A stretch of 64,000 bases of DNA from Planctomycetota bacterium (GCA_014240375.1 JAAZXB010000005.1:64297-128296), one strand, 5' to 3'; shown: positions 7,633 to 31,182, counted from the first letter of the stretch. A program made the numbers and translations. Notes: generated by a model from the letters alone, not told the origin.

Positions 7633-7774
7633 CCACGGCGTTGATGTGCGTGAATTGATTCGACCGGCAGGAATCCAGCCGCAGAAATCCAGCAGTTGTG
7701 GGCATCGGATGGAACTCTATCGGATGGGTTGAACATCCAGAAATATGCGGTTCAGCAGGGCGATTGGGGCTCGA

Positions 7775-8905: not shown

Positions 8906-8970
8906 GGCTCGCTCCTCTGATCACCGGCAAATGAAAGGGCCGATAACGGCACTTTCGCCTCCGATACTGA

Positions 8971-10332: not shown

Positions 10333-10656
10333 TCCTCGTGGCGGAAGATCGCCAGATGTGTCGAGAATTCAGGGAAACCCAGTAGAAACCAATCGGACCG
10401 GGAATTCCTCGGTCCTCGGCCCGAATTCAAGGTAATCTCCGCCCCCCTGAGGCACAAGTGGCAGCCTCCGGCAGATTCGCACTGGTTTACTCCGGAGAAG
10501 CCTATTACACTGGAGGCAGTACGCGGGGGGACTGGGCCCGATTGAGGATTCCATGGGGGATTCTTGAATTGGAGTCGTCCTCAAGATACTGGCTGGTCCA
10601 ATCATCCCGGAACCAGCGCTGAACCTCTCGAGAGGAGGCTCGATTTGTCGAACCGA

Positions 10657-11361
10657 ATGAGCAGTTTTCTAGGACTGGCCCTTTTACTTCTCTTCACACC
10701 TGTCGCTCTAGGCGTGGCCTTTGCCGCGGATGACGACGGTGGGCTGCGCAAGCCACTCGATCTTCCTGCCGGTGGTGCGGGTAGTGATGATGAAGAAGAA
10801 GACGCTCCGGAAGCGATTCGCTTCTACGGATCTGAATTCGAAGGAGATACTTTCGTCTTCATCGTGCCGGCCTATGGCTTCTGCGGTGAGACTGACATCT
10901 TCGACATGATTCGTCAGGAAGTGTCGACCACTCTCAACCAGCTCTCGGCATCGGTCGACTTCGCCATCGTGGCGTACAACTCGACCACCTACATCTGGCG
11001 TCCCGACTGTGTCCATGCCTCACCCGGTCACAAGGCCGCGGCTCAGGCATGGATGGGTACGCTCGCTCCGATTGAGAACCACTGTCTCCTCGACGCTGCC
11101 CTCGCAGGTCTGGGCCTGGCTCAGCAAGCTTCGGGTGCCCACAAGCAGGTGATTATCTGCGGTGCTCGTGAGCCGTACTGCAACGGTTCCGGTGGTGGAA
11201 ACTACGCAGATATTTGCATGGAGTCGATCACGGCAGCTAACTTTGAGAACCTGCCGGTTCACACGATTTACTTCACCAGCTCGTTCTATTCTGGTGAAGA
11301 GCAGTTCTACGTGAACCTCGCCGCCATGAACGGCGGAACCTTCCGTCAGGTCGACTACTAG
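10657..11361 (+). CDS. Hypothetical secreted protein (possible degenerate vWA-like fold)
   Basis: AGAGGAGG Shine-Dalgarno sequence then ATG at 10657. Signal peptide MSSFLGLALLLLFTPVALGVAFA. Followed by a strong terminator. Confidence 0.5.
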   Translation: MSSFLGLALLLLFTPVALGVAFAADDDGGLRKPLDLPAGGAGSDDEEEDAPEAIRFYGSEFEGDTFVFIVPAYGFCGETDIFDMIRQEVSTTLNQLSASVDFAIVAYNSTTYIWRPDCVHASPGHKAAAQAWMGTLAPIENHCLLDAALAGLGLAQQASGAHKQVIICGAREPYCNGSGGGNYADICMESITAANFENLPVHTIYFTSSFYSGEEQFYVNLAAMNGGTFRQVDY

Positions 11362-11402
11362 ACCTCGACGGTTAGAGACTCGACACGAAACAAGATGATG
11401 CA

Positions 11403-11437
11403 GGCCCCAAACGTGAAAGCGTTTGGGGCCTTTTTTT
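11403..11437 (+). terminator. Rho-independent terminator (GGCCCCAAACG-tgaaag-CGTTTGGGGCC + T7)
   Basis: Perfect 11-bp stem, 6-nt loop, then seven T. 40 nt after the 10657..11361 stop. Confidence 0.75.
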
Positions 11438-11603
11438 CGCCTCATCCTGGCGACTGAAGAGTCCTCTGGATCGCCATCATCCTCGGCGACTGCTCCCCCT
11501 GCTCACTGCCGGAACCCACTGGCTTCGGGTGTCACCGTCGATCGGATCGGATATCCTCCGGGCAAGGGCCGCCAGAGGGCGAGGCGATCCCGGGAGGACT
11601 TCC

Positions 11604-14600
11604 ATGAGTGAAGTGGGACAGAGCTTCGAGTTTCCGGAACCACCGCAGTCTCCAGATTTTCCCAATCTGGAAGCTCAGGTCCGGACTTTCTGGGATGACA
11701 ACTCCATCGAACAGAAGGCCCTGGCACTTCGCCAGGGAGCAGAACGCTTCGTCTTCTTCGAGGGACCTCCCACCGCCAACGGCATGCCTCACCCCGGTCA
11801 CGCACTGACCCGTGCGATGAAGGACCTGTTTCCTCGATATCAGACGATGCGAGGTCGCCTCTGCGAAAGAAAGGCGGGCTGGGACACCCATGGATTGCCG
11901 GTCGAAACCGAGGTTTGCAAGGAGATCGGAATCCACTCGAAGGATCAGATCGAGGAGTATGGCATCGAACCGTTTGTCCGGCGCTGTCAGCAATCGGTAT
12001 TTCGCTATGTCAAGGAATGGGAGTCACTGACCCGTAACATCGGTTTCTGGGTCGATCTCGATGAGGCTTACGCCACATACCATCAGAGTTACGTTGAAAG
12101 TGTCTGGTGGGCACTCAAAAGATTGTTTGATCAGGGGCTGCTGTACCAGGGCGAAAAGATCGTCTGGTGGTGGGCCCAGGGAGGTACGGGTCTTTCCGCC
12201 GGTGAAGTCGGGGAAGGATACAGGGAAGTGGATGATCCGAGCGTTTTCGTTCGGATGCCACGGTTAGATGATCAGGGTCAGCCGGACGGGGTCGACTTCG
12301 TCGCATGGACCACTACGCCCTGGACTCTCATCTCGAATCAGTTCATCGCAGTGCATCCAGAGGTGCAGTACAGCACCGTCAAGGATGCCGGCAGTGATCA
12401 GAGGTTCATCGTCGCGACCGATCTGGTCGAGAAAATGGCGACCAAGTGGAAGATGGAACTGAGCATCGAGGAAACCGTGGTGGGAGCGGACCTGGTCGGC
12501 ACCCGTTACCGCCCTCCCTTCGACGGCTACTGGAAGCAGCATGGTGGGAGGGTCGCTGACCTGGTGGAAGGCGGTGAGGTTTCTCTGATGTGGAGAGTGG
12601 TCGCTGCTGATTTCGTGACCACCGGGAGTGGCAGTGGAGTGGTACACCAGGCACCGGCATTTGGTGAGGTGGATCATGAGGTCTTGGTCGCCGAGCGAGC
12701 GAAACTGGTAGATCCTGAAGTGCTGGAGTTGCTCTGTGCGGTCGAACCGGACGGTAGTTTCGGGGAGATTGCAGGAGAGCAGTTTCACGGACGCTGGGTC
12801 AAGGATTGTGACAAGGAACTGATCCGCAAGTTGAAGGAAGAGGGGACGCTCCTTCATCAGGAGGTGTATCGCCACGATTATCCCTTCTGTCCGCGGGCGC
12901 GTGAGGATGCGTTGATCCAGTACCCGCGTCGATCCTGGTTCATCCAGACCACTCGATTCGTCGACCAGATGCTGGAGAACAACCAACAGATCCAGTGGCA
13001 GCCGGAGCACATCCAGGATGGAAGATTTGGTAAGTACCTCGAATCGAATGTCGACTGGACCCTCTCGAGAGAGAGGTTCTGGGGCACCCCGCTGCCGATC
13101 TGGGTCTGCGAGAAGACCGGACAGATGGAAGCGATCGAGAACTACCAGGAACTGCTCTCGAAACCGGACGTGGTGGGGCAGGAAAAGTTCACCGATGCCA
13201 AGGAGGCGGATCCCACCCTGGATGACCACCTGAGAGTCCATCGCCCCTACATCGATGCGGTCCACTACGCCTCTCCTTACTCGGAGGGCGCGAGGATGCG
13301 AAGGGTGCCGGATGTCATCGATTGCTGGTTTGATGCCGGCTGCATGCCCTTTGCGCAGTGGGGATTCCCGCATCAAAATGTCGACCGTTTTTCAAGCCAG
13401 TTTCCAGCAGACTTCATCAGCGAGGCGATCGATCAGACTCGCGGATGGTTTTATGCGCTGCTGTCGATCTCGACCATCCTGTTCGGCCCGGAGGGGGCTG
13501 CACACGGAGATGAGAGGGTCCCGGAGGAGGCGTATGCCAGCTGGCCGCATCCATTCAAGTCATGCATCGTCCTGGGCCACTTGCTCGGCGAAGACGGCCT
13601 CAAGATGTCAAAATCGCTGAAGAATTACAGGACTCCCGATTACATCTTCGAGAAGGAGGGTGCCGATGCGATGCGCTGGCTCTTCTATGCCGGCCAGGCT
13701 CCATGGACCAGCCTTCGTTTCCAGGAGCAGTCGATCACCGAGGGGCAACGGGAGTTCCTTCTGCGGCTGTGGAATGTCTATTCCTTCTTCAGTATCTATG
13801 CCCGTATCGATGGCTGGCAGCCGACCGGCGACCTGAGGGCGGCTCCCGGGCCGGATGTGAAACTATCAGAACTCGATCGCTGGATCCTGGCAGAGTTGAA
13901 TGCCACGGTCGATCAGGTTCGAACTGCGCTCGATGATTTCGATAATCTGACCGCTGCGACTGCATTGAATGATTTCGTCGACGCACTGTCCAACTGGTAT
14001 GTCCGCCGTGGCCGTGATCGCTACTGGAGTGAAGGAATGAATGCCGACAAGGAAGCGGCCTATTCGACCCTCTATCACTGCCTGGTGACCACCACCATGC
14101 TGGCGGCACCGTTTGTTCCCTTCATCACCGAGCACCTCTACGGCGTACTGGTCAAATCTCGTGGGGACGATTTTCCAGAATCTGTTCATCTCTGTGATTA
14201 TCCGGAATCTGAAGCACAGCGTTTTGACGACTCCTTGTGTAGTCGCATGGCGATGATACGTGAGATCGCTTCGCTCGGACGGGCCTGTCGTTCGCGTGAG
14301 AAATTGAAGGTGCGGCAACCACTTCCGGCGGTCCGGATCGTCCTGGCCAATTCCAAAATGGTCTCCCAACTGGCGGCAGATACAGAGTTGATCTCCGAGG
14401 AACTGAATGTCAAAGGGGTCGAGTTCGTGGAAGATGCTTCGGAGTATGTTTCCTACGAGGTGAAGCCAAACTTCAAGGCGATCGGGCCCCGATTCGGACA
14501 GGATGCACGGTCGATCGCCAAGGCACTTTCTCAGCATGACGATCCGTCGGCGCTGGTGCGAGCCGCGAACTCCGGCCAGACGATTCCACTGATGCTCGAC

Positions 14601-21323: not shown

Positions 21324-22475
21324 TCACCGGGAGCTACGGAGAATCCAGGCGACCTGTTTCTTGCCGTGTCGAAGCAGTGCCAGGATCAGGTCGCCACCAC
21401 TACCGCGAAATTTGCGAGCCAACTGGGCCGGGTTCTCGGAGATTCCGCGAGTCTTGACGATGGAGATCCCTTCTCCCTGGGCTCGTAACCACCGTCGTAC
21501 CTTATCCTCACGCCATGGCATTCGTTCGACCACCTCGTAGCTCTTCAGCCATGGCGAATCGATCCGTTGATGACCGGCGAGCCAGCCGAGTCCTGGATGC
21601 AACTCTCCGATGGAGTGTCGGGAGAGTAAATGCCCGACCAGTCCCGCCCTCTCGATGGCCGAAACCGGTTCATGAATCCATGCCGGTTCGGGGTCAGTAA
21701 AGAGGTCGAGCCGCTGCTCCTCGCCGCTGATCGATTCTCCACTCGGCAGCAGGGTGGCTCGTCGCCGCTGTCCTCCATCGAAAGATCCGCGCCACAAGGT
21801 GGCTTCGACCAGGTCTCCACTCTCCTGGATGAACTCCACCTCGCCCGCCGGCAGTTGAGAGACATCCACTCCGGGGCCGCACTTGAGGGCGAGATCCGGG
21901 TGTCTTTCCATCAGCACCTCGAGAACATCAGGGCCGGGGAGCATCTCCGGGTAACTGTGACGGCGCCGACCGTCGAGGCGTCGGTCTGGATCGATATGAA
22001 GCGGTAAGGGGGTGAGCGGGAGTGCCGCCGCATCGGCGGTCACCGCATCGCCTTTGCCTCCGGTCAGTCGGACATTGGCCCTGGCCAGGGTCAAGCGAAG
22101 ACGATCACGATCGACCATCACGACCGGCCCTCCCTGCGACAGAGCGATCGAGTCGCTGCCGATTCCGCAGCACAGATCGATCACCGGGGACTCGCCACAG
22201 GCCTGTCGGATGCGATCGGCCTTGTGGCGGGCGACCGCCGAGCGGGTCGCTTGTTGCACCGCCTCGGCGGTGACCCATAGCCGCTCTGCCTGGTCGATGC
22301 GGCCGGTGGCGCGGCGTCGAGCGTCCCACAGCGACAGCACTGCGGCGACTTCGTCGCGGCTGCCATACTTGCGCAACTGCGACAGTTGCGACAGGCGACC
22401 CGGCTCGACGCCACGTGCGGCGAGCAGTAACGGATCGAGTTCTCCAGCGAGCAGTCGGGTCCAGATCGGGTCCAT
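21324..22475 (-). CDS. Class I SAM-dependent methyltransferase (RNA guanine-N2-methyltransferase-like)
   Basis: Motif I VIDLCCGIGSDSIAL. ATG at 22475 (MDPIWTRLL). The ORF is open further upstream, but that stretch is low-complexity. Confidence 0.55.
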   Translation of the reverse strand: MDPIWTRLLAGELDPLLLAARGVEPGRLSQLSQLRKYGSRDEVAAVLSLWDARRRATGRIDQAERLWVTAEAVQQATRSAVARHKADRIRQACGESPVIDLCCGIGSDSIALSQGGPVVMVDRDRLRLTLARANVRLTGGKGDAVTADAAALPLTPLPLHIDPDRRLDGRRRHSYPEMLPGPDVLEVLMERHPDLALKCGPGVDVSQLPAGEVEFIQESGDLVEATLWRGSFDGGQRRRATLLPSGESISGEEQRLDLFTDPEPAWIHEPVSAIERAGLVGHLLSRHSIGELHPGLGWLAGHQRIDSPWLKSYEVVERMPWREDKVRRWLRAQGEGISIVKTRGISENPAQLARKFRGSGGDLILALLRHGKKQVAWILRSSR

Positions 22476-22517: not shown

Positions 22518-22539
22518 AGCACTATTTTTTTGTTTGGGT
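22518..22539. promoter_or_regulatory. Palindromic candidate operator TTTGTTTGG-gttg-CCAAACAAA in the divergent promoter region upstream of the 22650/feoB operon
   Basis: Perfect 9-bp inverted arms with a 4-nt spacer. A near-identical core GTTTGGgctgCCAAAC recurs at 27655..27670, upstream of the DtxR-like regulator. Confidence 0.4.
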
Positions 22540-22649
22540 TGCCAAACAAACAGGTTCGTGGTCCCTTGTGGAGGATGGAAGGCATCGCTCGATGCACCGC
22601 TGGAACGGCACAGGGGGCGAGCAACAGAGCGATCGAGGAAGGGATTTAG

Positions 22650-23093
22650 ATGGGGCAACAAGTGGGCTCTCCTCTGGCGAAAAGGCTCTGCTGGCTGCTG
22701 GTGGTCGCCACTGTGACCTCGGGGTGGTCACCCGGCTGGGCCCAGCAGGGGATTCTCGATGGAGATCTCGATGGCGAGTCGGGGGTCCAGCGGATGAGAG
22801 ATGTGCAGATCGGTGGTTACTTTGATCTGGAACTCTTCATCGACTCGAATCGCTTCGATTTCCGTATCCATCCACGGGTGCCGCTGCTGGATGCCATGGT
22901 CACCGAGCATGTTCACTTCCCCTGCGAGATCGAGTTCGAGTACGGCGGACCGCCGATGGCGACCGTTGAAGGAGATGTCAAGGTCGAGTACGCCGATGTC
23001 GATCCGTTGCTGGATCGAGTTCCCGGGGCTACGGCCCTGATCCTGGTCGCAGGGGAAAAGAGCGCGCGCGGCTACCGGAAGTCAGGTCACTGA
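22650..23093 (+). CDS. Hypothetical secreted protein, translationally coupled to feoB
   Basis: Signal-like N-terminus LCWLLVVATVTSGWSPGWAQQ. Its stop overlaps the feoB start (TGATG). No recognisable family. Confidence 0.45.
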   Translation: MGQQVGSPLAKRLCWLLVVATVTSGWSPGWAQQGILDGDLDGESGVQRMRDVQIGGYFDLELFIDSNRFDFRIHPRVPLLDAMVTEHVHFPCEIEFEYGGPPMATVEGDVKVEYADVDPLLDRVPGATALILVAGEKSARGYRKSGH

Positions 23094-25051
23094 TGGTCAG
23101 CGAATCCACCGATGCGCCGCTACACATCACACTTGTGGGGAATCCCAACGTCGGAAAGAGCACTCTTTTCAATGCTCTGGTGGGGGCCAATTCGAGAATT
23201 TCCAACTACCCAGGGATCACTGCGGATTCGGTGATCGGTGAGTTTTTCGGTGCCCAGCAATTACGCATCGTCACCGACTTGCCGGGAACCTATAGCCTCG
23301 AACTCAATCTTCCCGAGGCTCAACTGTGTCACCAGCACTTGAAATTCGATGTACCGCCGCAAAGCGAGCAACAGAATCTGATCATCGTGGTCATCGAAGC
23401 GGTGGGATTCCCGAGAAATTTTCAGCTTCTGGCACAGTTGATGGCACTGGGAGTTCCGATGGCTGTGGTGGTGACGAAAACTGCCGAGGCGCAACTTCGT
23501 GGTTACCAGATCCAGTTGCAGGCGTTGGAAGAGTCGCTGGGAATTCCGGTGGTCGAGGCTGCGGAGAAATCGGCGATGCGGACCCTCGATGTGGAAGCGC
23601 TGATCGCTGCCGCGCGGATTCCCACGCCGGTTCACCCAGACCAGGAATCGATCGAGCAGTGGAGTTCAGATCTGCTGGCGAAGACAAGTCTTCCGGTCCG
23701 TCCCGAGCAGGCTCGCAGAAGGCGAAGAAGAGATGATCGACTCGACCGTGTGCTGGTTCATCCCATCGCCGGTTCTGTTCTGTTCTTGCTGGCGATGATC
23801 TGCATGTTTGGATCGGTCTACTGGATGGCCCAGGTACCGATGGAGTGGATCGATGTGGCATTTGGAACCGTCGGGGGGTGGATCTCCACTTCGATGGAAG
23901 ATGGTCCGTTGCGTGGATTGCTGGTGGACGGAGTCATCGGTGGAATCTCGGGAACGATGGTCTTTCTGCCGCAAATCCTGCTGCTCTTCTTTCTCATCTC
24001 CTTGCTGGAAGAAACCGGGTACATGGCGCGAGCCGCATTCGTCGCCGATCGCTGGCTTCGGCCCTTCGGCTTGCCGGGACAGGCGTTCGTACCGCTCCTT
24101 TCGAGTCATGCCTGTGCGATTCCAGGAATCCTCTGTACCCGGCTGATCCCCGATCGAAGAGATCGGCTCGCCACCATCCTGGTGGCGCCGTTCCTCTCCT
24201 GTTCGGCGCGGTTACCGGTGTACATCTTGATGGTCGGGATCCTCGCCCCGACCAATCCACTGGTCGCGGGCTGCGTATTCGTCGGCTGCTACCTGCTCGG
24301 AGCTTTGGTGGCAGTGGGATCTGCGGGTCTGGTCCGCAAGACCCTGTTGACCGGACCCAGTCTGCCGATGGTGCTGGAACTACCACCGTACCGCTTGCCG
24401 TCGATCGGAGATGCCGCTCGCATCGCCATCGATCGAGGATGGACCTTCTTGAAGAATGCCGGCTCGGTGATCCTGCTGATCTGTATCGCCTTGTGGTGGC
24501 TCAGTGCTTATCCGACGACGCCAGAAGGTCCGGAGATCGAGGCACTTCGTGTCGCCGCAGAAGCCCACTCCGATCCGGGGGAGTCACAACGGTTGCTGGA
24601 CCAGGCGCAGTCTCTCCATCTGAGGGAGTCTGCGAGGGGATCCTACGCCGGACAACTGGGTCGCTGGATCGAGCCTGTTCTGGCCCCGATCGGTGCAGAC
24701 TGGCAACTGTCGGTGGCGATCCTGGCGAGTTTTGCTGCGAGAGAAGTGTTCGTCTCTTCACTCAATGTGATGGTGGGGGTCAGAGAAGAGGAGGCTGCAG
24801 CGAGTTCCATCGCTCGAATTCGAGCATCGACACGAGATGATGGATCGCCGTTGCTTCCTCCTGCGGCTGCTGGAGGACTGCTGGTCTTCTACATCCTGGC
24901 GATGCAGTGCTTGCCGACCCTGGTGGTGACCAGTCGTGAGGCGGGAGGGATCCGCTGGGCGTTGCTACAATTGATCTGGATGACATCTGTAGCGTGGATC
25001 CTCGGAGTGGTGGCACGTCAGTGGATGCTGGCCGCGGGATTTTCTGGATGA
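23093..25051 (+). CDS. feoB: Ferrous iron transport protein B
   Basis: 652 aa. N-terminal G-domain GNPNVGKSTLFNAL, then the polytopic membrane domain with the gate motifs of FeoB. TGA stop. Confidence 0.9.
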   Translation: MVSESTDAPLHITLVGNPNVGKSTLFNALVGANSRISNYPGITADSVIGEFFGAQQLRIVTDLPGTYSLELNLPEAQLCHQHLKFDVPPQSEQQNLIIVVIEAVGFPRNFQLLAQLMALGVPMAVVVTKTAEAQLRGYQIQLQALEESLGIPVVEAAEKSAMRTLDVEALIAAARIPTPVHPDQESIEQWSSDLLAKTSLPVRPEQARRRRRRDDRLDRVLVHPIAGSVLFLLAMICMFGSVYWMAQVPMEWIDVAFGTVGGWISTSMEDGPLRGLLVDGVIGGISGTMVFLPQILLLFFLISLLEETGYMARAAFVADRWLRPFGLPGQAFVPLLSSHACAIPGILCTRLIPDRRDRLATILVAPFLSCSARLPVYILMVGILAPTNPLVAGCVFVGCYLLGALVAVGSAGLVRKTLLTGPSLPMVLELPPYRLPSIGDAARIAIDRGWTFLKNAGSVILLICIALWWLSAYPTTPEGPEIEALRVAAEAHSDPGESQRLLDQAQSLHLRESARGSYAGQLGRWIEPVLAPIGADWQLSVAILASFAAREVFVSSLNVMVGVREEEAAASSIARIRASTRDDGSPLLPPAAAGGLLVFYILAMQCLPTLVVTSREAGGIRWALLQLIWMTSVAWILGVVARQWMLAAGFSG

Positions 25052-25194
25052 GCGATTTCCCCCTCTCCGATCCTCAGTTCTGGTGGGTGACGCTACTGGC
25101 CGTGGCAGCGGTGGTACTGCTGATCGTGAAACGAGTTCGTCAGTCGAACGATCAGGACCAGAACGGTTCTTGCGGTGGTTGTTCCACGAAATAG
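25048..25194 (+). CDS. FeoB-associated Cys-rich small membrane protein
   Basis: 48 aa. Start ATG overlaps the feoB stop (ATGA). Single TM helix (WWVTLLAVAAVVLLIV) followed by GSCGGCS. Matches the FeoB-associated Cys-rich peptide family. Confidence 0.6.
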   Translation: MSDFPLSDPQFWWVTLLAVAAVVLLIVKRVRQSNDQDQNGSCGGCSTK

Positions 25195-25291
25195 CCGCGG
25201 TTGGCGCTGGAACTCTATCCCATTCAATGTTTGGATGCCGAGGGTTCACTGCTCTGAATCGTTTCGGAAATCAAGTTAGGAGTCCTGTCCA

Positions 25292-26473
25292 ATGAAGATG
25301 ATTGCTACTCATGCATTTCTCTTGCTGAAGGTGACCATCCTCCTTTGCATCGCGCCGATCCACGGTTCCGCATCGACAGTGGTGATTCTCGACGATCCAG
25401 CTCCCGCGGTGGTTACCAAGGCACAGGAGACTGCCGCACGCAATGCGCTGGACAAGATGCAGAAGCGGATGGATGAGGCGTGGACCGAGTACCTGGCCCC
25501 GCTGCGAGAAGCGAAGACTGCCGAGGAACGAGATGCCATCGAATTGGATCCAGAAAAGGATCCGGGTGTGATGTTCCTGCCTGAATTGTTCAAGTTCAGC
25601 AGTGACCATCCGGGGACTGCTGCGTGTCTCGAAGCTCTTTCTCAGGTGATCTCGATGGCCTCGCGAGATGAAAAGAACCGCTGGATGCTCAAGCAGGTGG
25701 TCGATCGGATCATCCTCGAATACATCGAGCATGAAGAACTCAAGGATCTGGTGCGCTTTGGTCATTACAACCCACCTTCTCCAGAAAACTTGTCATTGCT
25801 GAGAGCGGCTGCCGACCGATCTCCTCACCGAACCGTTCAGGGCTCTGCTTTCTATGCTCTTGGAAAACTGCTCGGATCTTCAGAAGAGACGAGAGCCGAG
25901 GGGAAGCAACTCCTCCAACGGGTCCAGAAGGAGTATGCGGATGTGCCATTTTTTCGGGAGACCACCTATGGCGAGAAGGTCGCAGGAGATCTGTTTGAAC
26001 TGGATCATCTGCAGGTCGGGCAAGTGGCGCCAGAGATCATCGGTACCGGACTCGATGGGGATCTGATGCAACTCTCCGCGTTTCGCGGCAAGGTGGTACT
26101 GCTCGATTTCTGGGGTGATTGGTGAGGCCCTTGCCGGGCGATGTACCCACACGAGCGGTCGCTCGTGAAGAAACACTCCGCGGATCAATTTGCCATCGTC
26201 GGGGTCAACTCGGAGAATACCATCGAAGCTGCTCGCGAAGCGGTGAAGAAAAACAAGCTGACCTGGAAGAACTTCTACGATGGGGGTGGGGCCAACCCCA
26301 CCTCTGGTCCCATCGCCACTCGCTGGAATGTCAGCGGCTGGCCCACCACCTATCTTCTCGATGAAAATGGCGTGATTCGCTACAAGGATGTCCGAGGTGA
26401 AACTCTCGACGCAGCACTCGAGACTCTGATCGATCAGTGGAAGGCGGCCCGGGAGGCGGAGGCGAAACTCTAG
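25292..26473 (+). CDS. Secreted TlpA-like thiol:disulfide oxidoreductase selenoprotein candidate. In-frame UGA (26123..26125) gives a UxxC motif (FWGDW-U-GPC-RAM).
   Basis: ORFs 25292..26125 and 26141..26473 share a frame across a single TGA. The joined sequence FRGKVVLLDFWGDW[U]GPCRAMYPHERSLVKKHSADQFAIVGVNSE...WPTTYLLDENGVIRYK is a textbook TlpA/ResA domain with TGA at the first Cys. Hairpin ACGAGCG-gt-CGCTCGT at 26151..26166, 26 nt 3' of the UGA. Signal peptide MKMIATHAFLLLKVTILLCIAPIHGSAS. TAG stop. Confidence 0.7.
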
Positions 26474-26561
26474 CGATCACTCAGGCGAGTTCGTCGTCGA
26501 TCGAGGAGCGTTGTGCCCTATGGGACAACGATTCGATCGAGCCCCCTGACCCGGATGGAGT

Positions 26562-26604
26562 GGGGAGGGAGCAGCCGGTTCCGGCTGTTTCCTCCCCTTT
26601 CTTC
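26562..26604 (+). terminator. Candidate rho-independent terminator after the 25292..26473 gene
   Basis: Nested GC stem GGGGAGGGAGCAGCCGG-tt-CCGGCTGTTTCCTCCCC followed by TTTCTTCG. Confidence 0.45.
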
Positions 26605-27103
26605 GAATCGGAGCCCACCCACAGTTCCTCGAAACCAGCGATTCCTCAAGACCAGCGATCGAACCGAGGGACAGACGCAGCAGCAGCAGGCTGCCGCCTA
26701 GCATCCACCCTAGCGGAGTCCGCGAATCGCTGGCGTTTCATGCTGAAGCCACCAGGGGGCGAACCGGGTCAGCAGCAGGGAACCGTATCCGAGCAATGAC
26801 AGCGTGATCTTTGGACCTTCGCTCCACGGAGTCCGTTCGATTCGATGCAGGAGCACGAAGAGCAGTAGTGCGAGTGAGATGCTGGGGTCGTGGATGCTGG
26901 GGTCGTGGATGATGGCGAGCATCTACTGCGGTGAATCCACCGGAGCGTCCCGAATACTGAAGAAGTGCCACGAATCCACCGAGCAGGACCGTCAGCAAGA
27001 ACAGGGTCAGGAGTACTTGCGTCGATGGATTGACCCTGGCCAGGGTCAAGCGGGCTTGCTTGTAGAATCGAGTCACTGGACCGGTGCGCCCGTGAGATTG
27101 AAG

Positions 27104-27508
27104 CTATGAAGGGACGGGAATGGCGAGGATCGAGGAAGCGACCTGCTCACTGATTCCGACACGGCTTCCATCGATATCGAGGATGCAGGTCCCTCTCGAT
27201 TGACACAGGTGAAGATCGCAGTCGTTGCACAGGCCCATCGCTTCGAGCAGGGGCCGGTGGGATTCGGGCACCGATTCGCGAACCAGACGGATCCGTTGGC
27301 CTCGATTCAGATCCCTCAGCAAGCGGGGAGCGACAGGGGAGAAGTCGATGGTAGATGAGCGAGGAGTAGATGAGTGAGGAGTAGATGAGTGAGGAGTAGA
27401 TGAGTGAGGAGTAGATGAGTGAGGAGTAGATGAGTCGACAATCCGGGACTGCTGCGGGAGGGAGGTGGAGCCCAGCGGATCCTGGTTGGAGTTTTCTCGA
27501 AACATCAA
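27104..27508 (-). CDS. feoA: FeoA-family (SH3-like) small protein with an N-terminal (SSTPH)x5 repeat and a CxxC-containing core
   Basis: C-terminal GQRIRLVRESVPESHRPLLEAMGLCNDCDLHLCQSRGTCILDIDGSRVGISEQVASSI fits the FeoA pattern (G.R..V.......rL..mGl.pG..i.v.....i.v.g..i.l....A..I). In-frame 15-bp tandem repeat at about 27355-27430. Divergent from the DtxR-like gene. Confidence 0.55.
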   Translation of the reverse strand: MMFRENSNQDPLGSTSLPQQSRIVDSSTPHSSTPHSSTPHSSTPHSSTPRSSTIDFSPVAPRLLRDLNRGQRIRLVRESVPESHRPLLEAMGLCNDCDLHLCQSRGTCILDIDGSRVGISEQVASSILAIPVPS

Positions 27509-27654
27509 TTCCTCCTCGAAAGGCCTGGATCGCCAGAAATGGCGGATTGTCTCACCGCTCCGGTGCGGCTACCCTTGTCAGGTGCTCTGGCACCGGCGGC
27601 AAGTCCGCTCTCATGAATGAGAGTGTAGCGATCTGTTCGGGGGGGTGTCAACAT

Positions 27655-27670
27655 GTTTGGGCTGCCAAAC
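27655..27670. promoter_or_regulatory. Palindromic candidate operator GTTTGG-gctg-CCAAAC (extended arms acaTGTTTGG / CCAAACttgt) in the feoA / DtxR-like divergent promoter
   Basis: Same core as 22521..22536 upstream of the feoB operon. 80-95 bp upstream of the regulator start at 27750. Confidence 0.4.
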
Positions 27671-27749
27671 TTGTCGGCTGTAATAGCCACCAAGGGTGCC
27701 AATGCTGGCCTTTGCGGCGAGTTCTGGCTCTGACCTTTCAGGAGGATTC

Positions 27750-28298
27750 GTGAGCGACTGGCGAGAATTCGAGCAGAATCCCGTAAGCCACTCGGCGGCA
27801 CATCACCTGACCACCATCCAGTGGCTCCTCGATGATCAGGGATATGCCCGCGTCTCCGATGTGGCGAGGCACCTGGGCATCACCCGAGGCAGTGTCTCGG
27901 TCACACTCAAGGGGCTGCGCCAGCGAGGCCTGGTGGTCGAGGATGATCACAAGCACCTTTCTCTGTCGGAGGAAGGAGTTCAAATCGCCCGAGGAATTCG
28001 AACCAAGCGGGTCCTGATCCAGGCACTTTTTCGTGAAGTACTGGGAGTTCCCGACGAGGTGGCAGAACAAGATGCCTGCAAGGTCGAGCACCTCATCAGC
28101 GACCAGACCGCAGAAGCTACCGGTGGTTTCCTGGTCGGGTTGGAGAAGATCTCCTCCGACTCGCAGTGGACTCACTTGCTCGAATCTCTTCAGCGGCTAG
28201 CCGCTGCCACTCCTGCCTCCTTCCCGGGCAGTGCGACGCAAGAGCTGGCTCTTCGACTCGAGAAGAAGGACCCCCAAGGTGAGGATCAACCATCATGA
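27750..28298 (+). CDS. DtxR/MntR-family metal-dependent transcriptional repressor (two-domain form, no SH3 tail)
   Basis: AGGAGGA Shine-Dalgarno sequence then GTG at 27750. HTH and metal-site region HHLTTIQWLLDDQGYARVSDVARHLGITRGSVSVTLKGLRQRGLVVEDDHKHLSLSEEG. Confidence 0.75.
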   Translation: MSDWREFEQNPVSHSAAHHLTTIQWLLDDQGYARVSDVARHLGITRGSVSVTLKGLRQRGLVVEDDHKHLSLSEEGVQIARGIRTKRVLIQALFREVLGVPDEVAEQDACKVEHLISDQTAEATGGFLVGLEKISSDSQWTHLLESLQRLAAATPASFPGSATQELALRLEKKDPQGEDQPS

Positions 28299-28747
28299 CC
28301 CGAATCATCTCTCGCACCGAAGCGATTGAAAAACTCAACGGCTTGCTCGCCGAGGAACTGGAGGCCTCGATCCGTTACTTGCACCTCAGTTCGATGGTGC
28401 AGGGGATCGATCGATTGATCGTTCAAAAGGTCCTGCAAGAGAATCACGAGGAGACGATCGAACACGCTCAACAGGTCAGCGAAAAGATCCTTCAACTCGG
28501 TGGCAATCCGACTCCCAGAATCCAACTCGATCTCGATGGTCGGCGATATTCTGGCCCGCAGGCGATCGCAGTGGCGCTGATCTTTGAACAGGCAGCGCTC
28601 GATGGTTACCGGGATCTGCTCGACCATGTCGACGGTAGTGGGGATGTGGTGCTGGAGGAGTTTGCCCGACAGCAGGTGGCTGTCGAATCGGAGCACGTCG
28701 CTCAACTACAGATGCTGCTGGTGGAGACTCCTGTTGGCGATCAGTGA
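28295..28747 (+). CDS. Ferritin-like (Dps/ferritin superfamily) four-helix-bundle protein
   Basis: LNGLLAEELEASIRYLH...ENHEETIEHAQQVSEKILQLGGNP. Start overlaps the regulator stop (ATGA), so an operon with the DtxR-like gene. Confidence 0.6.
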   Translation: MTRIISRTEAIEKLNGLLAEELEASIRYLHLSSMVQGIDRLIVQKVLQENHEETIEHAQQVSEKILQLGGNPTPRIQLDLDGRRYSGPQAIAVALIFEQAALDGYRDLLDHVDGSGDVVLEEFARQQVAVESEHVAQLQMLLVETPVGDQ

Positions 28748-28940
28748 TCGTCCTGGCGGATTGACCGCATTAGCCGCTCTGAACGGTTTCTTTGCCATCT
28801 CCTGCGGTTTTCCGGGGCTCCAGCGCATCATCTCCTCGTACCGCCTCCACGCTCATCTGCAAGACCCTGAAGCCACCGCAAATCGCTGGAGCCGCAGGAA
28901 TCTGGAATCGTTGATCGAAGCCGATGTGGATCCTCAGCAG

Positions 28941-29210
28941 ATGGAACTGCTCGGCATTCTCGGCCTGGTGGTCGCCTTGTTGCTCGCCGTATCGGTGTGG
29001 GGTCTGTTGAAACGAAATCACTGGGCTGGAAAGTGGGGTTCGACCCTGGCTGCAGTGGGGATGGTTTCGATATCCTGGCTGGCCGTCGAGGTGTTGCCGA
29101 CAGATCTTGTGAGAGGAGTGGGTATGAATCTGGTGCGTCAGATGTTCTATCCCCTGTTCCTGCTCATCATGGTTCATGGGATCTTTCGCAAGGATTTGAG
29201 GCTTCGATGA
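28941..29210 (+). CDS. Small membrane protein (hypothetical)
   Basis: 89 aa from the first in-frame ATG after the ferritin-like stop. Two TM helices. Stop overlaps the ABC permease start (ATGA). Confidence 0.3.
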   Translation: MELLGILGLVVALLLAVSVWGLLKRNHWAGKWGSTLAAVGMVSISWLAVEVLPTDLVRGVGMNLVRQMFYPLFLLIMVHGIFRKDLRLR

Positions 29211-30112
29211 TGGGTCGATGGCAGATTCTGCTCCATGCGAGGAACTTCCTTTCCCATTCGCTTCGTTCCGGATCGGGAGTTGCGTTCATCGTTCTCACGG
29301 TGATGGTGGGGCTGGGCTGCGCCAGTCTGGTGTTCTTTCCCATCGAGTCGGAGTTGGTCACCGCGAAAGAGTTCAAGGAGAATGCAGCTCAGGGGGTGGG
29401 CACCTTTCTTGCGGTGGCGACGCTTCAGCCCGGGAAATTCAGTACCCTCAGTGAACAAATCGAGTCGGAAGAACTGGTCGAACTGGCAATGTGGGGTCGG
29501 TACCTGGTGTTGGATCATCCGGTGCTGCTGTCGTTGACGGTGATGTTGCTGGGGCTGCTGCTGCCAGTCTTGTTGCAACTGGGCTCCTTTGCGTGCATCG
29601 CCGGCGATGTTCAGCATCACTCGATCCGCTACCTGCTGCCCAGAACCACCCGAACATCGCTGCTGCTGGGTCGGCTACTGGGGGCACTGATCCTCTCCTG
29701 GACCGTGATCACCGGCTTGCAGGGGGCGGTCGTCATGTATCTGGGAATCGTCTTGCCCCTCGATGGGTGGAGTGCCTTGATCACGTGGGGGTTCCAGACT
29801 CTGGGGGCTCTGGTGGTCTTGACTGTCCCCTATGTGGCCCTGGGAGTGCTCTGTAGCACCTTATTCCGCTCACCGATGGTCGCATTGATGGGATCAGTCG
29901 GCTTCACCCTGGCGGTGCCGTTGATCGCCTTCAGCTCCAGGCAAGCGTGGGAACCACTCGGCAATCTACTTTTTCTTTTGCCCTGGGGATATTCCCATCA
30001 CTTGCTATCTCCTGACGAAACAGTGGTCGTGAAGACAGCGCTCTACTGCCTGGGTCATGGTTTGATCTTCACCGTCATCGCAGTGCTTCGACTTCGGAGG
30101 GCAGACCTGTGA
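29207..30112 (+). CDS. ABC-2 family transporter permease
   Basis: Polytopic protein with 6 predicted TM helices. Translationally coupled to the downstream ATPase (4-nt overlap). Confidence 0.55.
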   Translation: MMGRWQILLHARNFLSHSLRSGSGVAFIVLTVMVGLGCASLVFFPIESELVTAKEFKENAAQGVGTFLAVATLQPGKFSTLSEQIESEELVELAMWGRYLVLDHPVLLSLTVMLLGLLLPVLLQLGSFACIAGDVQHHSIRYLLPRTTRTSLLLGRLLGALILSWTVITGLQGAVVMYLGIVLPLDGWSALITWGFQTLGALVVLTVPYVALGVLCSTLFRSPMVALMGSVGFTLAVPLIAFSSRQAWEPLGNLLFLLPWGYSHHLLSPDETVVVKTALYCLGHGLIFTVIAVLRLRRADL

Positions 30113-31182
30113 TCGATTCTTCATCGTTACTGAGGATCGAGCAATTGAGCCATCGCTTCGGCGACAAGGTGGCGATCGATCACGTCGACTGGAAACTCGA
30201 CCAGTGCGGAGTAGTGGGGCTGGTCGGTCCCAACGGTGCCGGTAAGACCACCCTCTTCTCGCTGATCGCCGGGTTCCTTCGCGTGCAAGGGGGCTCGATT
30301 GAAGTGCTGGGAGGTGCCGCTCCGGGATCTCGATCGCTGGTCAGCCGGGTCGCGGTGATGCCGCAGGATGCCATCTTCGCCCGCGATGTCTCGATCGTCG
30401 ATCAGATGCTGTTTCTCCGAGCGCTCGATGGGGTGACCGGGACCATCGCTCGCCAGGAGGTGGTTGCAGCGCTCGAGAGCGTCGGGCTCGCCGACCAACT
30501 GGATCGAGGTGCGGCGGTTCTCTCTCATGGGATGGGAAAAAGACTCGGTGTGGCTCAGGCGATCCTCGGGTCACCAGAACTGATTCTACTCGATGAGCCG
30601 ACCGCCGGGCTCGACCCTGCCAATGCGCTGCAGGTGCGTGATTTGATTCGAAGTCTCGGAAAAAAAGCGCTGGTCATCGTTTCATCCCACAATCTGCTGG
30701 AGTTGCAGGATCTGATCGACGAGGTGGCGGTGATCGTCGCTGGAAGGATGGTCGCCAGTGGCCCGATCGACGAGGTGACAGGTTCCGCTCGCAGGTTCGA
30801 ACTGCGGCTGGGTCGGGTGATCTCCCCCGGGGAATTGCAACAGATCCGCGATGAGGAACTGGTGCGCGGAGTCAGCCAGGATGGGACTCAACTGACGGTG
30901 GATCTCGATGCCAGTGCCGATGGGGGTCTCGATGCGGCGCTGGATCAACTTCTCCATCGATTACTGAAACTGGCAGCCCCTCCTCGTCAATTGAGAGAGG
31001 GCGCGAGTCTCGAGGAAGCGTATCTGAGATTGACAGGCGAGTCGGAGCAGGAAGCCGCGCCGCTCGATGATCGAACTGAAGATGATCGAACTGAAGATGA
31101 TCGAACTGAAGATGATCGAACTGAAGATGATCCAGATGAGTCCGATGCTCCGGCAGCAGCAAAAACTAGCGACGATCGGTAG
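30109..31182 (+). CDS. ABC transporter ATP-binding protein with a C-terminal (DDRTE)x4 acidic repeat
   Basis: Walker A GPNGAGKTT, Q-loop, signature LSHGMGKRL, Walker B LILLDEPTAGLD, H-loop SSHNL. In-frame 15-bp tandem repeat at about 31066-31130. Confidence 0.85.
   Translation: MIDSSSLLRIEQLSHRFGDKVAIDHVDWKLDQCGVVGLVGPNGAGKTTLFSLIAGFLRVQGGSIEVLGGAAPGSRSLVSRVAVMPQDAIFARDVSIVDQMLFLRALDGVTGTIARQEVVAALESVGLADQLDRGAAVLSHGMGKRLGVAQAILGSPELILLDEPTAGLDPANALQVRDLIRSLGKKALVIVSSHNLLELQDLIDEVAVIVAGRMVASGPIDEVTGSARRFELRLGRVISPGELQQIRDEELVRGVSQDGTQLTVDLDASADGGLDAALDQLLHRLLKLAAPPRQLREGASLEEAYLRLTGESEQEAAPLDDRTEDDRTEDDRTEDDRTEDDPDESDAPAAAKTSDDR

What the first reader, a model, noticed from the sequence alone, without database searches (positions are those of the whole stretch)
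22518..27670. Shared palindromic motif GTTTGG-N4-CCAAAC in both iron-module promoters: candidate operator for the encoded DtxR/MntR-like repressor
TTTGTTTGGgttgCCAAACAAA (22518..22539) sits in the divergent region upstream of the 22650-feoB-(FeoB-associated peptide) operon. acaTGTTTGGgctgCCAAACttgt (27655..27670) sits between feoA (minus) and the DtxR-family regulator/ferritin-like operon (plus).

The 16-bp cores differ at one spacer base. This is neither a Fur box nor the classic 19-bp DtxR/IdeR box, but it is a two-fold symmetric site of the right size for a dimeric DtxR/MntR protein. It occurs exactly where iron- or manganese-responsive control is expected, including autoregulation of the repressor.
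Basis: seen in the sequence. Interest (0 to 1): 0.6.

Follow-up and report, generated by a model that had tools for sequence, protein, structure and literature searches.

The report
Conserved operator of Feo-linked DtxR regulator
A 16-bp palindrome found twice in this marine planctomycete's iron-uptake gene cluster is almost certainly the DNA docking site of the DtxR-type metal sensor encoded next to it; this is an ordinary kind of iron switch, but its sequence and sensor subfamily have not been described.

Summary
GTTTGG-N4-CCAAAC occurs exactly twice in 64 kb, at 22532-22547 and 27655-27670, against 0 in shuffles. Both copies are intergenic.

Comparative genomics supports the interpretation. 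In 85 related loci (887 kb) there are 37 exact copies:
- 28 lie within 350 nt upstream of the regulator's homologue.
- 9 lie in the intergenic region upstream of the feoB operon.
- None lies anywhere else.

The half-sites never vary, the 4-nt centre varies freely, and the regulator's recognition helix (ITRGSVSVTL) is invariant wherever the exact motif occurs. A looser GTTT-N8-AAAC follows more distant homologues into other phyla.

At the feoA side the palindrome sits 3 nt from the -35 box of a conserved promoter (TTGACA-18-TACACT). This fits repression by occlusion.

The regulator has the MntR/DtxR fold and the DtxR-type Cys-x-x-Glu-His metal site. It scores below the curated thresholds for MntR and DtxR proper and lacks the SH3 domain.

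Verdict: a new operator for an uncharacterised Feo-linked DtxR subfamily. Binding, the metal sensed and the sign of control on the regulator-ferritin operon are untested. Interest is moderate.

The parts
22532..22547 (.). Operator site 1, GTTTGGGTTGCCAAAC (extended palindrome TTTGTTTGG-GTTG-CCAAACAAA, 22529-22550). It lies between the THUMP-like methyltransferase gene (-) and the p147-feoB operon (+).
   Evidence: 31.3 bits. The orthologous site, with conserved flanks, is present in L005, L010, L013 and L081-L085.
27655..27670 (.). Operator site 2, GTTTGGGCTGCCAAAC (extended ACATGTTTGG-GCTG-CCAAACTTGT, 27651-27674). It lies between feoA (-) and the regulator-ferritin operon (+).
   Evidence: 28.8 bits. 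The orthologous site lies upstream of the regulator in L001-L024, L027, L029 and L081-L085.
27622..27651 (-). Sigma-70-type promoter directed at feoA: -35 TTGACA (27651-27646), 18-nt spacer, -10 TACACT (27627-27622). The -35 box is 3 nt from the palindrome.
   Evidence: 10 of 12 matches against 0.0 expected in shuffles. Both hexamers and the 3-nt gap are conserved in 22 loci. All 28 exact regulator-side sites in the related loci have TCAA immediately to the left.
27750..28298 (+). DtxR/MntR-family metalloregulator, 182 aa, GTG start after AGGAGGA. It has a winged HTH, a dimerisation/metal domain and an extra C-terminal helical region in place of an SH3 domain.
   Evidence: Pfam PF02742 scores 40.8 bits (cut-off 27) and PF01325 scores 29 bits (cut-off 26). 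PDB sequence hits are MntR, IdeR and DtxR. The AF2 model has pLDDT 88, and the top Foldseek hit is B. subtilis MntR with TM 0.86.
27104..27505 (-). feoA-like gene (FeoA/SH3 domain, N-terminal STPHS repeats). Predicted target of site 2.
   Evidence: Pfam PF04023 gives E = 1.7e-4, 22 bits against a cut-off of 23. The gene is syntenic in nearly all related loci.
26477..27076 (-). Gene downstream of feoA. It is homologous to a 217-aa Aq_1264_TM (PF27139) membrane protein in L081 and is broken into three ORFs in the window.
   Evidence: In one search the tblastn matches fall in frames -2 and -3.
22650..23093 (+). p147, first ORF of the feoB operon. It is an in-frame deletion chimera: the N-terminal ~120 aa of a 392-aa secreted protein joined to the last ~30 aa of an FMN_bind/ApbE protein.
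   Evidence: 71% identity to the p392 N-terminus; 89% identity to the ApbE C-terminus.
23093..25051 (+). feoB (ferrous iron transporter). Predicted target of site 1.
   Evidence: Pfam FeoB_N, Gate and FeoB_C.
24994..25194 (+). FeoB-associated Cys-rich membrane peptide.
   Evidence: PF12669 gives E = 2.3e-4, below the cut-off. The gene is syntenic in related loci.
28295..28747 (+). Ferritin-like four-helix-bundle protein. Its start overlaps the regulator's stop codon (ATGA), so the two are co-transcribed.
   Evidence: PF00210 gives 5.6e-20. The gene follows the regulator in loci L001-L031.
28734..31182 (+). Small membrane protein, ABC-2 permease and ABC ATPase. They are tightly packed after the ferritin-like gene and are probably part of the same operon.
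21324..22475 (-). THUMP-like/methyltransferase gene, divergent from the feoB operon. Its start is 57 nt from site 1. It may be a bystander or co-regulated.
   Evidence: The same 57-nt distance is seen in L005, L010 and L081.

Best explanation
The palindrome GTTTGG-N4-CCAAAC, which extends to about 20-24 bp, is the operator of the DtxR-family metalloregulator encoded at 27750-28298.

Shown:
- The motif, its two positions and its strict co-conservation with the regulator gene and with the feoB-operon promoter region.
- A conserved sigma-70-type feoA promoter whose -35 box lies 3 nt from the palindrome.
- The regulator's MntR/DtxR fold and conserved His18/Cys110/Glu113/His114 site.

Inferred:
- With Fe2+ bound, a regulator dimer places its two recognition helices in consecutive major grooves. 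The half-site centres are 10 bp apart.
- At site 2 the bound dimer covers the upstream edge of the feoA -35 box and the UP-element region, and so shuts off feoA.
- At site 1 it shuts off the (p392-ApbE-)feoB operon.
- When iron is scarce the apo-protein leaves the DNA and ferrous-iron uptake is switched on.
- Site 2 also lies upstream of the regulator-ferritin-ABC operon, so the regulator probably controls its own operon. Whether it represses or activates there is not determined.
For: (1) The motif occurs exactly twice in 64 kb against 0 in shuffles, and the weight matrix finds nothing else of 8 bits or more.

(2) In 85 related loci (887 kb) there are 37 exact sites: 28 within 350 nt upstream of the regulator homologue, 9 in the methyltransferase/feoB-operon intergenic region, and 0 elsewhere. 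My own calculation of the chance expectation is about 0.05.

(3) The half-sites are invariant, while 12 different 4-nt centres occur.

(4) The recognition helix ITRGSVSVTL, or the near-identical ITRGSVSVSL, is found in all loci with the exact motif. Homologues with ITRGSAS(L/I)TL carry GTTTTA...TAAAAC-type or mixed variants.

(5) Of 51 occurrences of GTT T-N8-AAAC (written GTTT-N8-AAAC) in 790 kb, 44 fall in the 27 kb upstream of regulator homologues. These include KSB1, Calditrichota and Phycisphaerae MAGs where the regulator directly precedes feoB.

(6) The feoA promoter TTGACA-18-TACACT is conserved at a fixed 3-nt distance from the palindrome in 22 loci whose other intergenic sequence has diverged.

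(7) The regulator has both DtxR-family Pfam domains above threshold and the MntR/IdeR/DtxR fold.

(8) With a numbering offset of 8 relative to IdeR/DtxR, Cys110, Glu113 and His114 correspond to Cys102, Glu105 and His106, and His18 corresponds to Met10. All four are invariant in 20 homologues.

(9) The regulator is the only DNA-binding protein in the conserved feo-ferritin cluster.

(10) In Akkermansia, also in the PVC superphylum, a DtxR-family gene beside the feo cluster is co-expressed with feo and is down-regulated in iron-replete medium (PMC12552655).
Against: - No binding or expression data exist for this protein or site.
- The regulator and the feo genes always travel together, so comparative genomics cannot strictly separate 'site of this regulator' from 'site of some other iron regulator acting on feo'.
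- At the feoA promoter the core lies upstream of the -35 box (about -39 to -54) rather than over the -35 or -10 box. This is unusual for a simple repressor.
- No convincing promoter could be assigned for feoB or for the regulator.
- The distance from the site to the regulator's start codon varies from 29 to 258 nt, so autoregulation has no fixed geometry.
- Repression of a co-transcribed ferritin-like gene at high iron would be physiologically odd.
- The ancillary DtxR metal site (His79/Glu83/His98) is not conserved; the corresponding residues are Arg87, Gln91 and Glu106.
Confidence: 0.8

Rival explanations
1. The palindrome is bound by a different iron-responsive regulator encoded elsewhere, such as a Fur-, Rrf2- or Crp/Fnr-type protein. 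The DtxR-family protein would be just another member of that regulon.
For: The motif always co-occurs with feo genes as well as with the regulator, so linkage alone cannot separate the two. A 5-6 bp arm with an N4 spacer is also the geometry of Fnr-type sites (my own knowledge).
Against: - The site follows the regulator gene across several phyla and different gene orders: divergent from feoA, divergent from feoAB, or directly upstream of regulator-feoB.
- Operator variants change together with the recognition helix.
- The sequence resembles neither a Fur box nor the Fnr consensus TTGAT-N4-ATCAA.
- No other transcription factor is in the conserved cluster.
Confidence: 0.1
2. The regulator and operator are as proposed, but the signal is Mn2+ (an MntR-like sensor) rather than Fe2+.
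For: The best sequence and fold matches are MntR proteins. Source annotations call homologues 'Mn-dependent DtxR family regulator'.
Against: - The context is always feoA/feoB plus a ferritin-like gene, never mntH or mntABC.
- The position that is Glu99 in B. subtilis MntR is Cys110 here, as in the iron sensors DtxR and IdeR (Cys102).
- Scores are far below the MntR equivalog cut-offs: 66.9 against 153 bits, and 53.2 against 138 bits.
Confidence: 0.12
3. The palindrome works as an RNA hairpin in a 5' leader, for example as an attenuator or stability element, and not as a protein-binding DNA site.
For: If transcribed, the region folds into a 6-9-bp hairpin of -12 to -13.5 kcal/mol, with z-scores of -2 to -3.5. 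In many relatives the motif ends only about 15 nt before the regulator's start codon.
Against: - The arm sequences are invariant in 37 sites, with no compensatory changes.
- At feoA the motif lies upstream of the conserved -35 box, so it is not transcribed in that direction.
- There is no T-run.
- No Rfam family matches.
Confidence: 0.04
4. The two copies are a chance coincidence or remnants of a repeat or mobile element.
For: The window holds only two copies. In unrelated metagenomes the 18-mer TGTTTGG-N4-CCAAACA occurs at chance frequency with no link to iron genes in 117 of 120 sampled hits.
Against: There were 0 matches in 100 shuffles. The motif is conserved at orthologous positions in dozens of genomes while the flanking sequence diverges.
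Confidence: 0.01

Closest known systems
DtxR (Corynebacterium diphtheriae) and IdeR (Mycobacterium tuberculosis), iron-dependent repressors
   Same: - Same Pfam domains and the same fold in the DNA-binding and dimerisation domains.
- Same Cys-x-x-Glu-His primary metal-site motif: Cys110/Glu113/His114 correspond to Cys102/Glu105/His106.
- A palindromic operator at promoters of iron-uptake genes.
- Family members can both repress uptake genes and activate storage genes (C. glutamicum DtxR, PMC1382209).
   Different: - Only about 23-27% identity, and 36 bits against a cut-off of 290 for the DtxR equivalog.
- No C-terminal SH3-like domain; extra helices at about 138-173 take its place.
- His18 stands where DtxR has Met10.
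- The ancillary site residues His79/Glu83/His98 are replaced by Arg87/Gln91/Glu106.
- An invariant N-terminal W-x-E...N...H-S-x-A-H-H segment is present.
- The operator is an even 6-4-6 palindrome, GTTTGG-N4-CCAAAC, not the 19-bp 9-1-9 TTAGGTTAGCCTAACCTAA.
MntR (Bacillus subtilis, E. coli) and DR2539 (Deinococcus radiodurans), Mn-dependent two-domain DtxR-family regulators
   Same: - Best sequence and structure matches: E. coli MntR at 2e-9, B. subtilis MntR at TM 0.86.
- Two-domain architecture without an SH3 domain.
- One dimer spans two consecutive major grooves of a pseudo-palindrome of about 20 bp (DR2539-DNA structure, bioRxiv 10.1101/2024.02.12.579695).
   Different: - Scores are below the MntR equivalog cut-offs.
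- The MntR ligands Asp8, Glu11, His77 and Glu99 are His18, Thr21, Arg87 and Cys110 here.
- The targets are feo and ferritin genes, not mntH or mntABC.
- The operator sequence is different.
Amuc_1082, the DtxR-family gene beside the feo cluster of Akkermansia muciniphila (PMC12552655)
   Same: - The organism belongs to the PVC superphylum.
- The regulator is encoded next to feo genes.
- It is co-expressed with feo and is itself lower in iron-replete medium, as expected for an iron-dependent autoregulated repressor.
   Different: Orthology with the window's protein was not tested. No operator was defined for Amuc_1082 in that paper.

Membership tests
DtxR/MntR family of metal-dependent transcriptional regulators | N-terminal winged helix-turn-helix domain (Pfam PF01325, Fe_dep_repress) | tested here: met
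   29.0 bits against a gathering cut-off of 26. The AF2 model shows H35-42, H46-58 and a beta-hairpin at 62-72.
DtxR/MntR family of metal-dependent transcriptional regulators | Helical metal-binding/dimerisation domain (Pfam PF02742, Fe_dep_repr_C) | tested here: met
   40.8 bits against a cut-off of 27. Foldseek TM is 0.76-0.89 to MntR, IdeR and DtxR chains, normalised on the target.
DtxR/MntR family of metal-dependent transcriptional regulators | Conserved metal ligands at the domain interface (DtxR primary site Met10/Cys102/Glu105/His106) | tested here: met
   Cys110, Glu113 and His114 align with Cys102, Glu105 and His106, and His18 aligns with Met10 (numbering offset of 8). All four are invariant in 20 homologues. 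Actual metal binding was not tested.
DtxR/MntR family of metal-dependent transcriptional regulators | Metal-dependent binding as a dimer to a palindromic operator at metal-homeostasis promoters | not testable with these tools
   Only indirect evidence is available: a conserved palindrome with half-site centres 10 bp apart at feo promoters and at the regulator's own promoter region.
DtxR/IdeR proper (three-domain iron repressors) | C-terminal SH3-like domain and ancillary site His79/Glu83/His98 | tested here: not met
   - The protein is 182 aa, and residues 138-173 are helical.
- The aligned positions are Arg87, Gln91 and Glu106.
- The NCBIfam DtxR equivalog scores 36.3 bits against a cut-off of 290.
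DtxR/IdeR proper (three-domain iron repressors) | 19-bp iron box TTAGGTTAGCCTAACCTAA | tested here: not met
   The operator is GTTTGG-N4-CCAAAC, with even symmetry.
MntR (Mn2+ sensor) equivalogs | Score above the curated equivalog cut-off, and the binuclear Mn site Asp8/Glu11/His77/Glu99/Glu102/His103 | tested here: not met
   Scores are 66.9 against 153 bits and 53.2 against 138 bits. The alignment gives His18, Thr21, Arg87 and Cys110 at four of the six ligand positions.

The most novel reading that the evidence does not exclude
This would be a distinct, widespread Feo-dedicated branch of the DtxR family, found in marine Planctomycetota and reaching Phycisphaerae, Calditrichota and KSB1. It would have its own His/Cys/Glu/His iron site, a helical C-terminal module instead of the SH3 domain, and its own operator code (GTTTGG/CCAAAC, drifting to GTTTTA/TAAAAC).

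From a single site it would act as a two-way switch. Iron-loaded protein abutting the -35 box would shut off feoA while activating, rather than repressing, the divergent regulator-ferritin-ABC operon. This would resemble the activation of storage genes by IdeR and C. glutamicum DtxR.
Probability: 0.25. Interest if true: 0.55.

Novelty: new member of a known kind. Interest (0 to 1): 0.4.

Why it matters
Planctomycetota and their uncultured marine relatives have essentially no experimentally defined transcription-factor/operator pairs, and I found no paper describing iron regulation in them. This result supplies:
- a concrete, testable operator;
- a promoter with mapped -35 and -10 boxes;
- the cognate sensor for ferrous-iron uptake in an abundant marine lineage;
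- a motif that can be used to annotate iron regulons in MAGs.

It also offers a natural series of operator and recognition-helix variants for studying DNA-specificity evolution in the DtxR family. It does not change how metal-dependent repression is understood.

Tried and rejected
(1) Regulon expansion with a metagenome-wide scan for TGTTTGG-N4-CCAAACA. Of 120 sampled hits, 117 were chance matches in unrelated organisms (GC 28-72%, no feo or regulator gene nearby). Only L099, L100 and L178 lay beside feo genes. With 14 specified bases the pattern is too short for this collection, so nothing was learned about further regulon members.

(2) Assigning promoters for the feoB operon and for the regulator. 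The consensus scan found none at site 1. By-eye candidates, such as TGTAAT at 27679-27684 and TTGCCA inside the palindrome, are not conserved among relatives. I left them unassigned.

(3) Looking for a shared palindrome upstream of the most distant homologues, those with the ITRGSVSISL helix. None was found; the regulator may not be the first gene of its operon there.

(4) A second, overlapping palindrome formed by the conserved RAMCR element in the feoA promoter spacer. The spacing to any GTTT-like partner is 10 nt, not 8, so I rejected it.

(5) A known RNA family in the two intergenic regions. None was found; the one hit was at chance level, 22.5 bits against a gathering score of 110.5.

(6) Literature searches for the motif or for planctomycete DtxR regulators found no description.

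(7) A short-peptide PDB search meant to display the Cys-x-x-Glu-His alignment mostly returned noise. It did confirm the residue offset to IdeR.

Full report
**Observation**

The 16-bp pattern GTTTGGNNNNCCAAAC occurs exactly twice in the 64-kb window. One copy is at 22532-22547 (GTTTGGGTTGCCAAAC) and the other at 27655-27670 (GTTTGGGCTGCCAAAC). None of 100 dinucleotide-preserving shuffles contained a single match.

The first are about 11 nt too low: the 22-mer TTTGTTTGGGTTGCCAAACAAA is at 22529-22550. Allowing two mismatches adds only one match, inside a long ORF at 18229, which is at chance level.

**Genes around the two sites**

| Coordinates | Strand | Gene |
|---|---|---|
| 21324-22475 | - | THUMP-like methyltransferase |
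| 22532-22547 | . | site 1 |
| 22650-23093 | + | p147 |
| 23093-25051 | + | feoB |
| 24994-25194 | + | FeoB-associated peptide |
| 25292-26473 | + | thioredoxin/TlpA-like gene |
| about 26477-27076 | - | broken membrane-protein gene |
| 27104-27505 | - | feoA |
| 27655-27670 | . | site 2 |
| 27750-28298 | + | DtxR-family regulator |
| 28295-28747 | + | ferritin-like gene, overlapping the regulator's stop codon |
| up to 31182 | + | small membrane protein, ABC-2 permease, ABC ATPase |

**Comparative evidence: the motif**

I aligned the regulator with 19 homologues and used the alignment to fetch 80 loci from one-genome-per-species contigs. Nearly all are Planctomycetota MAGs; a few carry Calditrichota, KSB1, Bacteroidetes, Proteobacteria or Bacillota labels.

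- Every locus from L001 to L024, plus L027 and L029, carries the motif exactly or with one mismatch. These regulators range from 97% down to about 52% identity. The motif starts 29-113 nt (258 nt in L029) upstream of the regulator's start codon.
- Five further loci of 15-20 kb were fetched through exact-protein look-ups. All five show the regulator-side site and also a site between the methyltransferase gene and the first gene of the feoB operon. L005, L010 and L013 show this second site too.
- Altogether the 85 loci (887 kb) hold 37 exact copies. Of these, 28 lie within 350 nt upstream of the regulator, 9 lie in the methyltransferase/feoB-operon intergenic region, and none lies anywhere else. 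My own calculation of the chance expectation for 12 specified bases in that much DNA is about 0.05.
- A 24-nt weight matrix built from these sites gives no hit of 20 bits or more outside these two kinds of position in the 80 genome-contig loci (790 kb). In the window it gives no hit of 8 bits or more apart from the two sites.

**Comparative evidence: how the sequence varies**

- The half-sites never vary, while twelve different 4-nt centres occur. This pattern is expected for a protein that reads two major grooves and does not contact the centre.
- The recognition helix is ITRGSVSVTL or ITRGSVSVSL in every locus with the exact motif.
- Homologues with ITRGSAS(L/I)TL carry GTTTTA...TAAAAC or mixed variants. 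These are Phycisphaerae, KSB1 and Calditrichota MAGs, where the regulator sits directly upstream of feoB.
- The looser GTTT-N8-AAAC occurs 51 times in 790 kb, and 44 of these fall in the 27 kb just upstream of regulator homologues.

**Promoter geometry**

The consensus scan finds one sigma-70-type promoter in the feoA-regulator intergenic region. It is on the minus strand: TTGACA (27651-27646), an 18-nt spacer, and TACACT (27627-27622), against 0.0 expected in shuffles.

I anchored 22 orthologous regions on the palindrome. In all of them the same arrangement appears: palindrome, 3 nt, TTGAC(A/G/C) or TTGATG, 17-18 nt, then a TAnACT-like hexamer. The rest of the intergenic sequence has diverged. 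All 28 exact regulator-side sites in the related loci have TCAA immediately to the left.

The operator core therefore covers about -39 to -54 of the feoA promoter, and its extended arms touch the first base of the -35 box.

The distance from the palindrome to the regulator's start codon, by contrast, varies from 29 to 258 nt. I could not assign a promoter for the regulator or for feoB. The conserved constraint is thus on the feoA side. Autoregulation is plausible but is not positioned.

**The regulator**

- Both DtxR-family Pfam domains score above their gathering thresholds.
- The closest solved structures by sequence are E. coli and B. subtilis MntR, then IdeR and DtxR.
- An AlphaFold2 model (pLDDT 88, pTM 0.80) matches B. 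subtilis MntR at TM 0.86. It matches IdeR-DNA and DtxR-DNA complexes at rmsd 1.3-1.8 Å over about 114 residues.
- It falls far short of the NCBIfam equivalog cut-offs for MntR (66.9 against 153 bits) and DtxR (36.3 against 290 bits).
- The alignments to IdeR and DtxR run at a numbering offset of 8 residues. On that basis Cys110, Glu113 and His114 correspond to the primary-site ligands Cys102, Glu105 and His106. His18 stands where DtxR has Met10. The ancillary ligands His79, Glu83 and His98 are Arg87, Gln91 and Glu106 here. The ligand identities of DtxR and IdeR are established knowledge.
- Against B. subtilis MntR, the Mn ligands Asp8, Glu11, His77 and Glu99 are His18, Thr21, Arg87 and Cys110.
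- Cys110, Glu113, His114, His18, and also His14 and His19, are invariant in 20 homologues.
- There is no SH3 domain. Residues 138-173 are predicted helical.
- A sulfur ligand at the Cys102 position, together with the invariable feoA/feoB/ferritin context, points to Fe2+ rather than Mn2+. This is an inference.

**Mechanism proposed**

An Fe2+-loaded dimer binds the palindrome. The half-site centres are 10 bp apart, which is one helical turn. This matches the way a DR2539 dimer places its alpha-3 helices in consecutive major grooves of its 21-bp pseudo-palindrome (bioRxiv 10.1101/2024.02.12.579695).

- At site 2 the bound protein abuts the feoA -35 box and would block sigma region 4 and the alpha-CTD.
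- At site 1 it would control the feoB operon.
- Under iron limitation the apo-protein dissociates and ferrous-iron uptake is expressed.

Site 2 is also upstream of the regulator-ferritin-ABC operon. The ferritin-like gene is co-transcribed with the regulator, so simple autorepression would lower a storage-type protein at high iron. Activation, as described for C. glutamicum DtxR on storage genes (PMC1382209), is an open alternative.

In Akkermansia, a DtxR-family gene beside the feo cluster is co-expressed with feo and is lower in iron-replete medium (PMC12552655). This fits autorepression, but orthology with the window's protein was not tested.

**Rivals**

- *A different regulator binds the site.* This cannot be excluded by linkage alone, because feo genes and the regulator always travel together. 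It is disfavoured because the site follows the regulator through different gene orders and phyla, and because the operator changes together with the recognition helix.
- *An RNA hairpin.* The region would fold if transcribed. However, the arms show no compensatory variation, the site lies upstream of the feoA -35 box, and no Rfam family matches.
- *Chance or a repeat.* Excluded by the conservation data.
- *Mn2+ instead of Fe2+.* This remains a live sub-alternative.

**Comparison with what is known, and novelty**

The system works like a DtxR/IdeR-type iron repressor, and the protein is a member of the DtxR/MntR family by domain content and fold. It is not a member of DtxR/IdeR proper: it lacks the SH3 domain, the ancillary site and the 19-bp iron box. 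It is not a member of the MntR equivalogs either.

I found no paper describing this operator or any planctomycete DtxR regulon. I rate it a new member of a known kind: a new operator consensus and an uncharacterised subfamily, useful for annotating iron regulons in uncultured marine bacteria, but mechanistically expected.

**Limits**

- Nothing was tested for binding.
- Only 64 kb of this genome and 12-20-kb pieces of its relatives were available.
- A metagenome-wide pattern scan was swamped by chance matches.

Noticed in passing
window 25292-26473 (+); TGA at 26123-26125; hairpin 26150-26167: The thioredoxin/TlpA-like gene has an in-frame TGA exactly at the first Cys of the redox motif (...DFWGDW-U-GPC...). 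The same one-codon gap between the N- and C-terminal parts is present in all 24 orthologous loci where both parts were matched, and gene callers split the gene into 277-aa and 107-aa ORFs. A 7-bp hairpin with a GGUC loop starts 27 nt after the TGA. This is a likely selenocysteine (UGPC) protein. There is no tRNA-Sec in the window.
   Followed up: partly
window 22650-23093 (+), compared with L081:2751-5377: p147 is an in-frame deletion chimera. Residues 1 to about 120 match the N-terminus of a 392-aa secreted protein of unknown family (71% identity). The last ~30 residues match the C-terminus of an FMN_bind/ApbE flavin transferase (89% identity). About 2.2 kb present in relatives (p392-ApbE upstream of feoB) is missing here. 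This is either a real deletion or an assembly artefact. The ancestral p392-ApbE-feoB operon suggests a flavinylated extracytosolic partner for ferrous-iron uptake.
   Followed up: yes
window about 26477-27076 (-): The gene downstream of feoA is homologous to a 217-aa Aq_1264_TM (PF27139) membrane protein in L081. In the window it is split over three ORFs in two frames and carries an HDPSIHDPSI duplication. It is a pseudogene or contains sequencing errors.
   Followed up: partly
window 27634-27638 (minus strand, within the feoA promoter spacer): A conserved RAMCR element (GAACA here; AAACA or AAACG in most relatives) sits at a fixed position 7 nt after the -35 box. That is 20 bp, or two helical turns, from the AAAC of the palindrome's proximal half-site. 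It could be an extra half-site contact, but I found no partner at the right spacing. It remains unexplained.
   Followed up: partly
L084:2577-2592 and 2632-2647; L085 the same; L013 about 57 nt upstream of 2014: In one subclade the feoB-operon region carries two tandem operator-like sites 55 bp apart. The upstream one is degenerate in L084 and L013 and exact in L085. The window has only one site.
   Followed up: no
L039, L040, L044, L072 and others, 58-80 nt upstream of the regulator: Phycisphaerae-type homologues with the recognition helix ITRGSASLTL carry GTTTTA-N4-TAAAAC, for example GTTTTATATATAAAAC. This sequence looks like it overlaps a -10 box. It may be an example of operator and helix evolving together.
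   Followed up: partly
window about 27330-27430 (-) and about 31080-31150 (+): There are short in-frame tandem peptide repeats: STPHS five times in the FeoA N-terminus, and DDRTE about four times in the C-terminal tail of the ABC ATPase.
   Followed up: no
L178:9708, with neighbours at 7701-9354 (-) and 10231-12411 (+): This metagenome contig (GC 63%) has a perfect 18-bp palindrome, GGGTGTTTGGTTAACCAAACACCC, between a divergent p392-ApbE pair and feoB. No regulator gene was detected in the 12.7 kb held. This is a different gene order for the same module.
   Followed up: no
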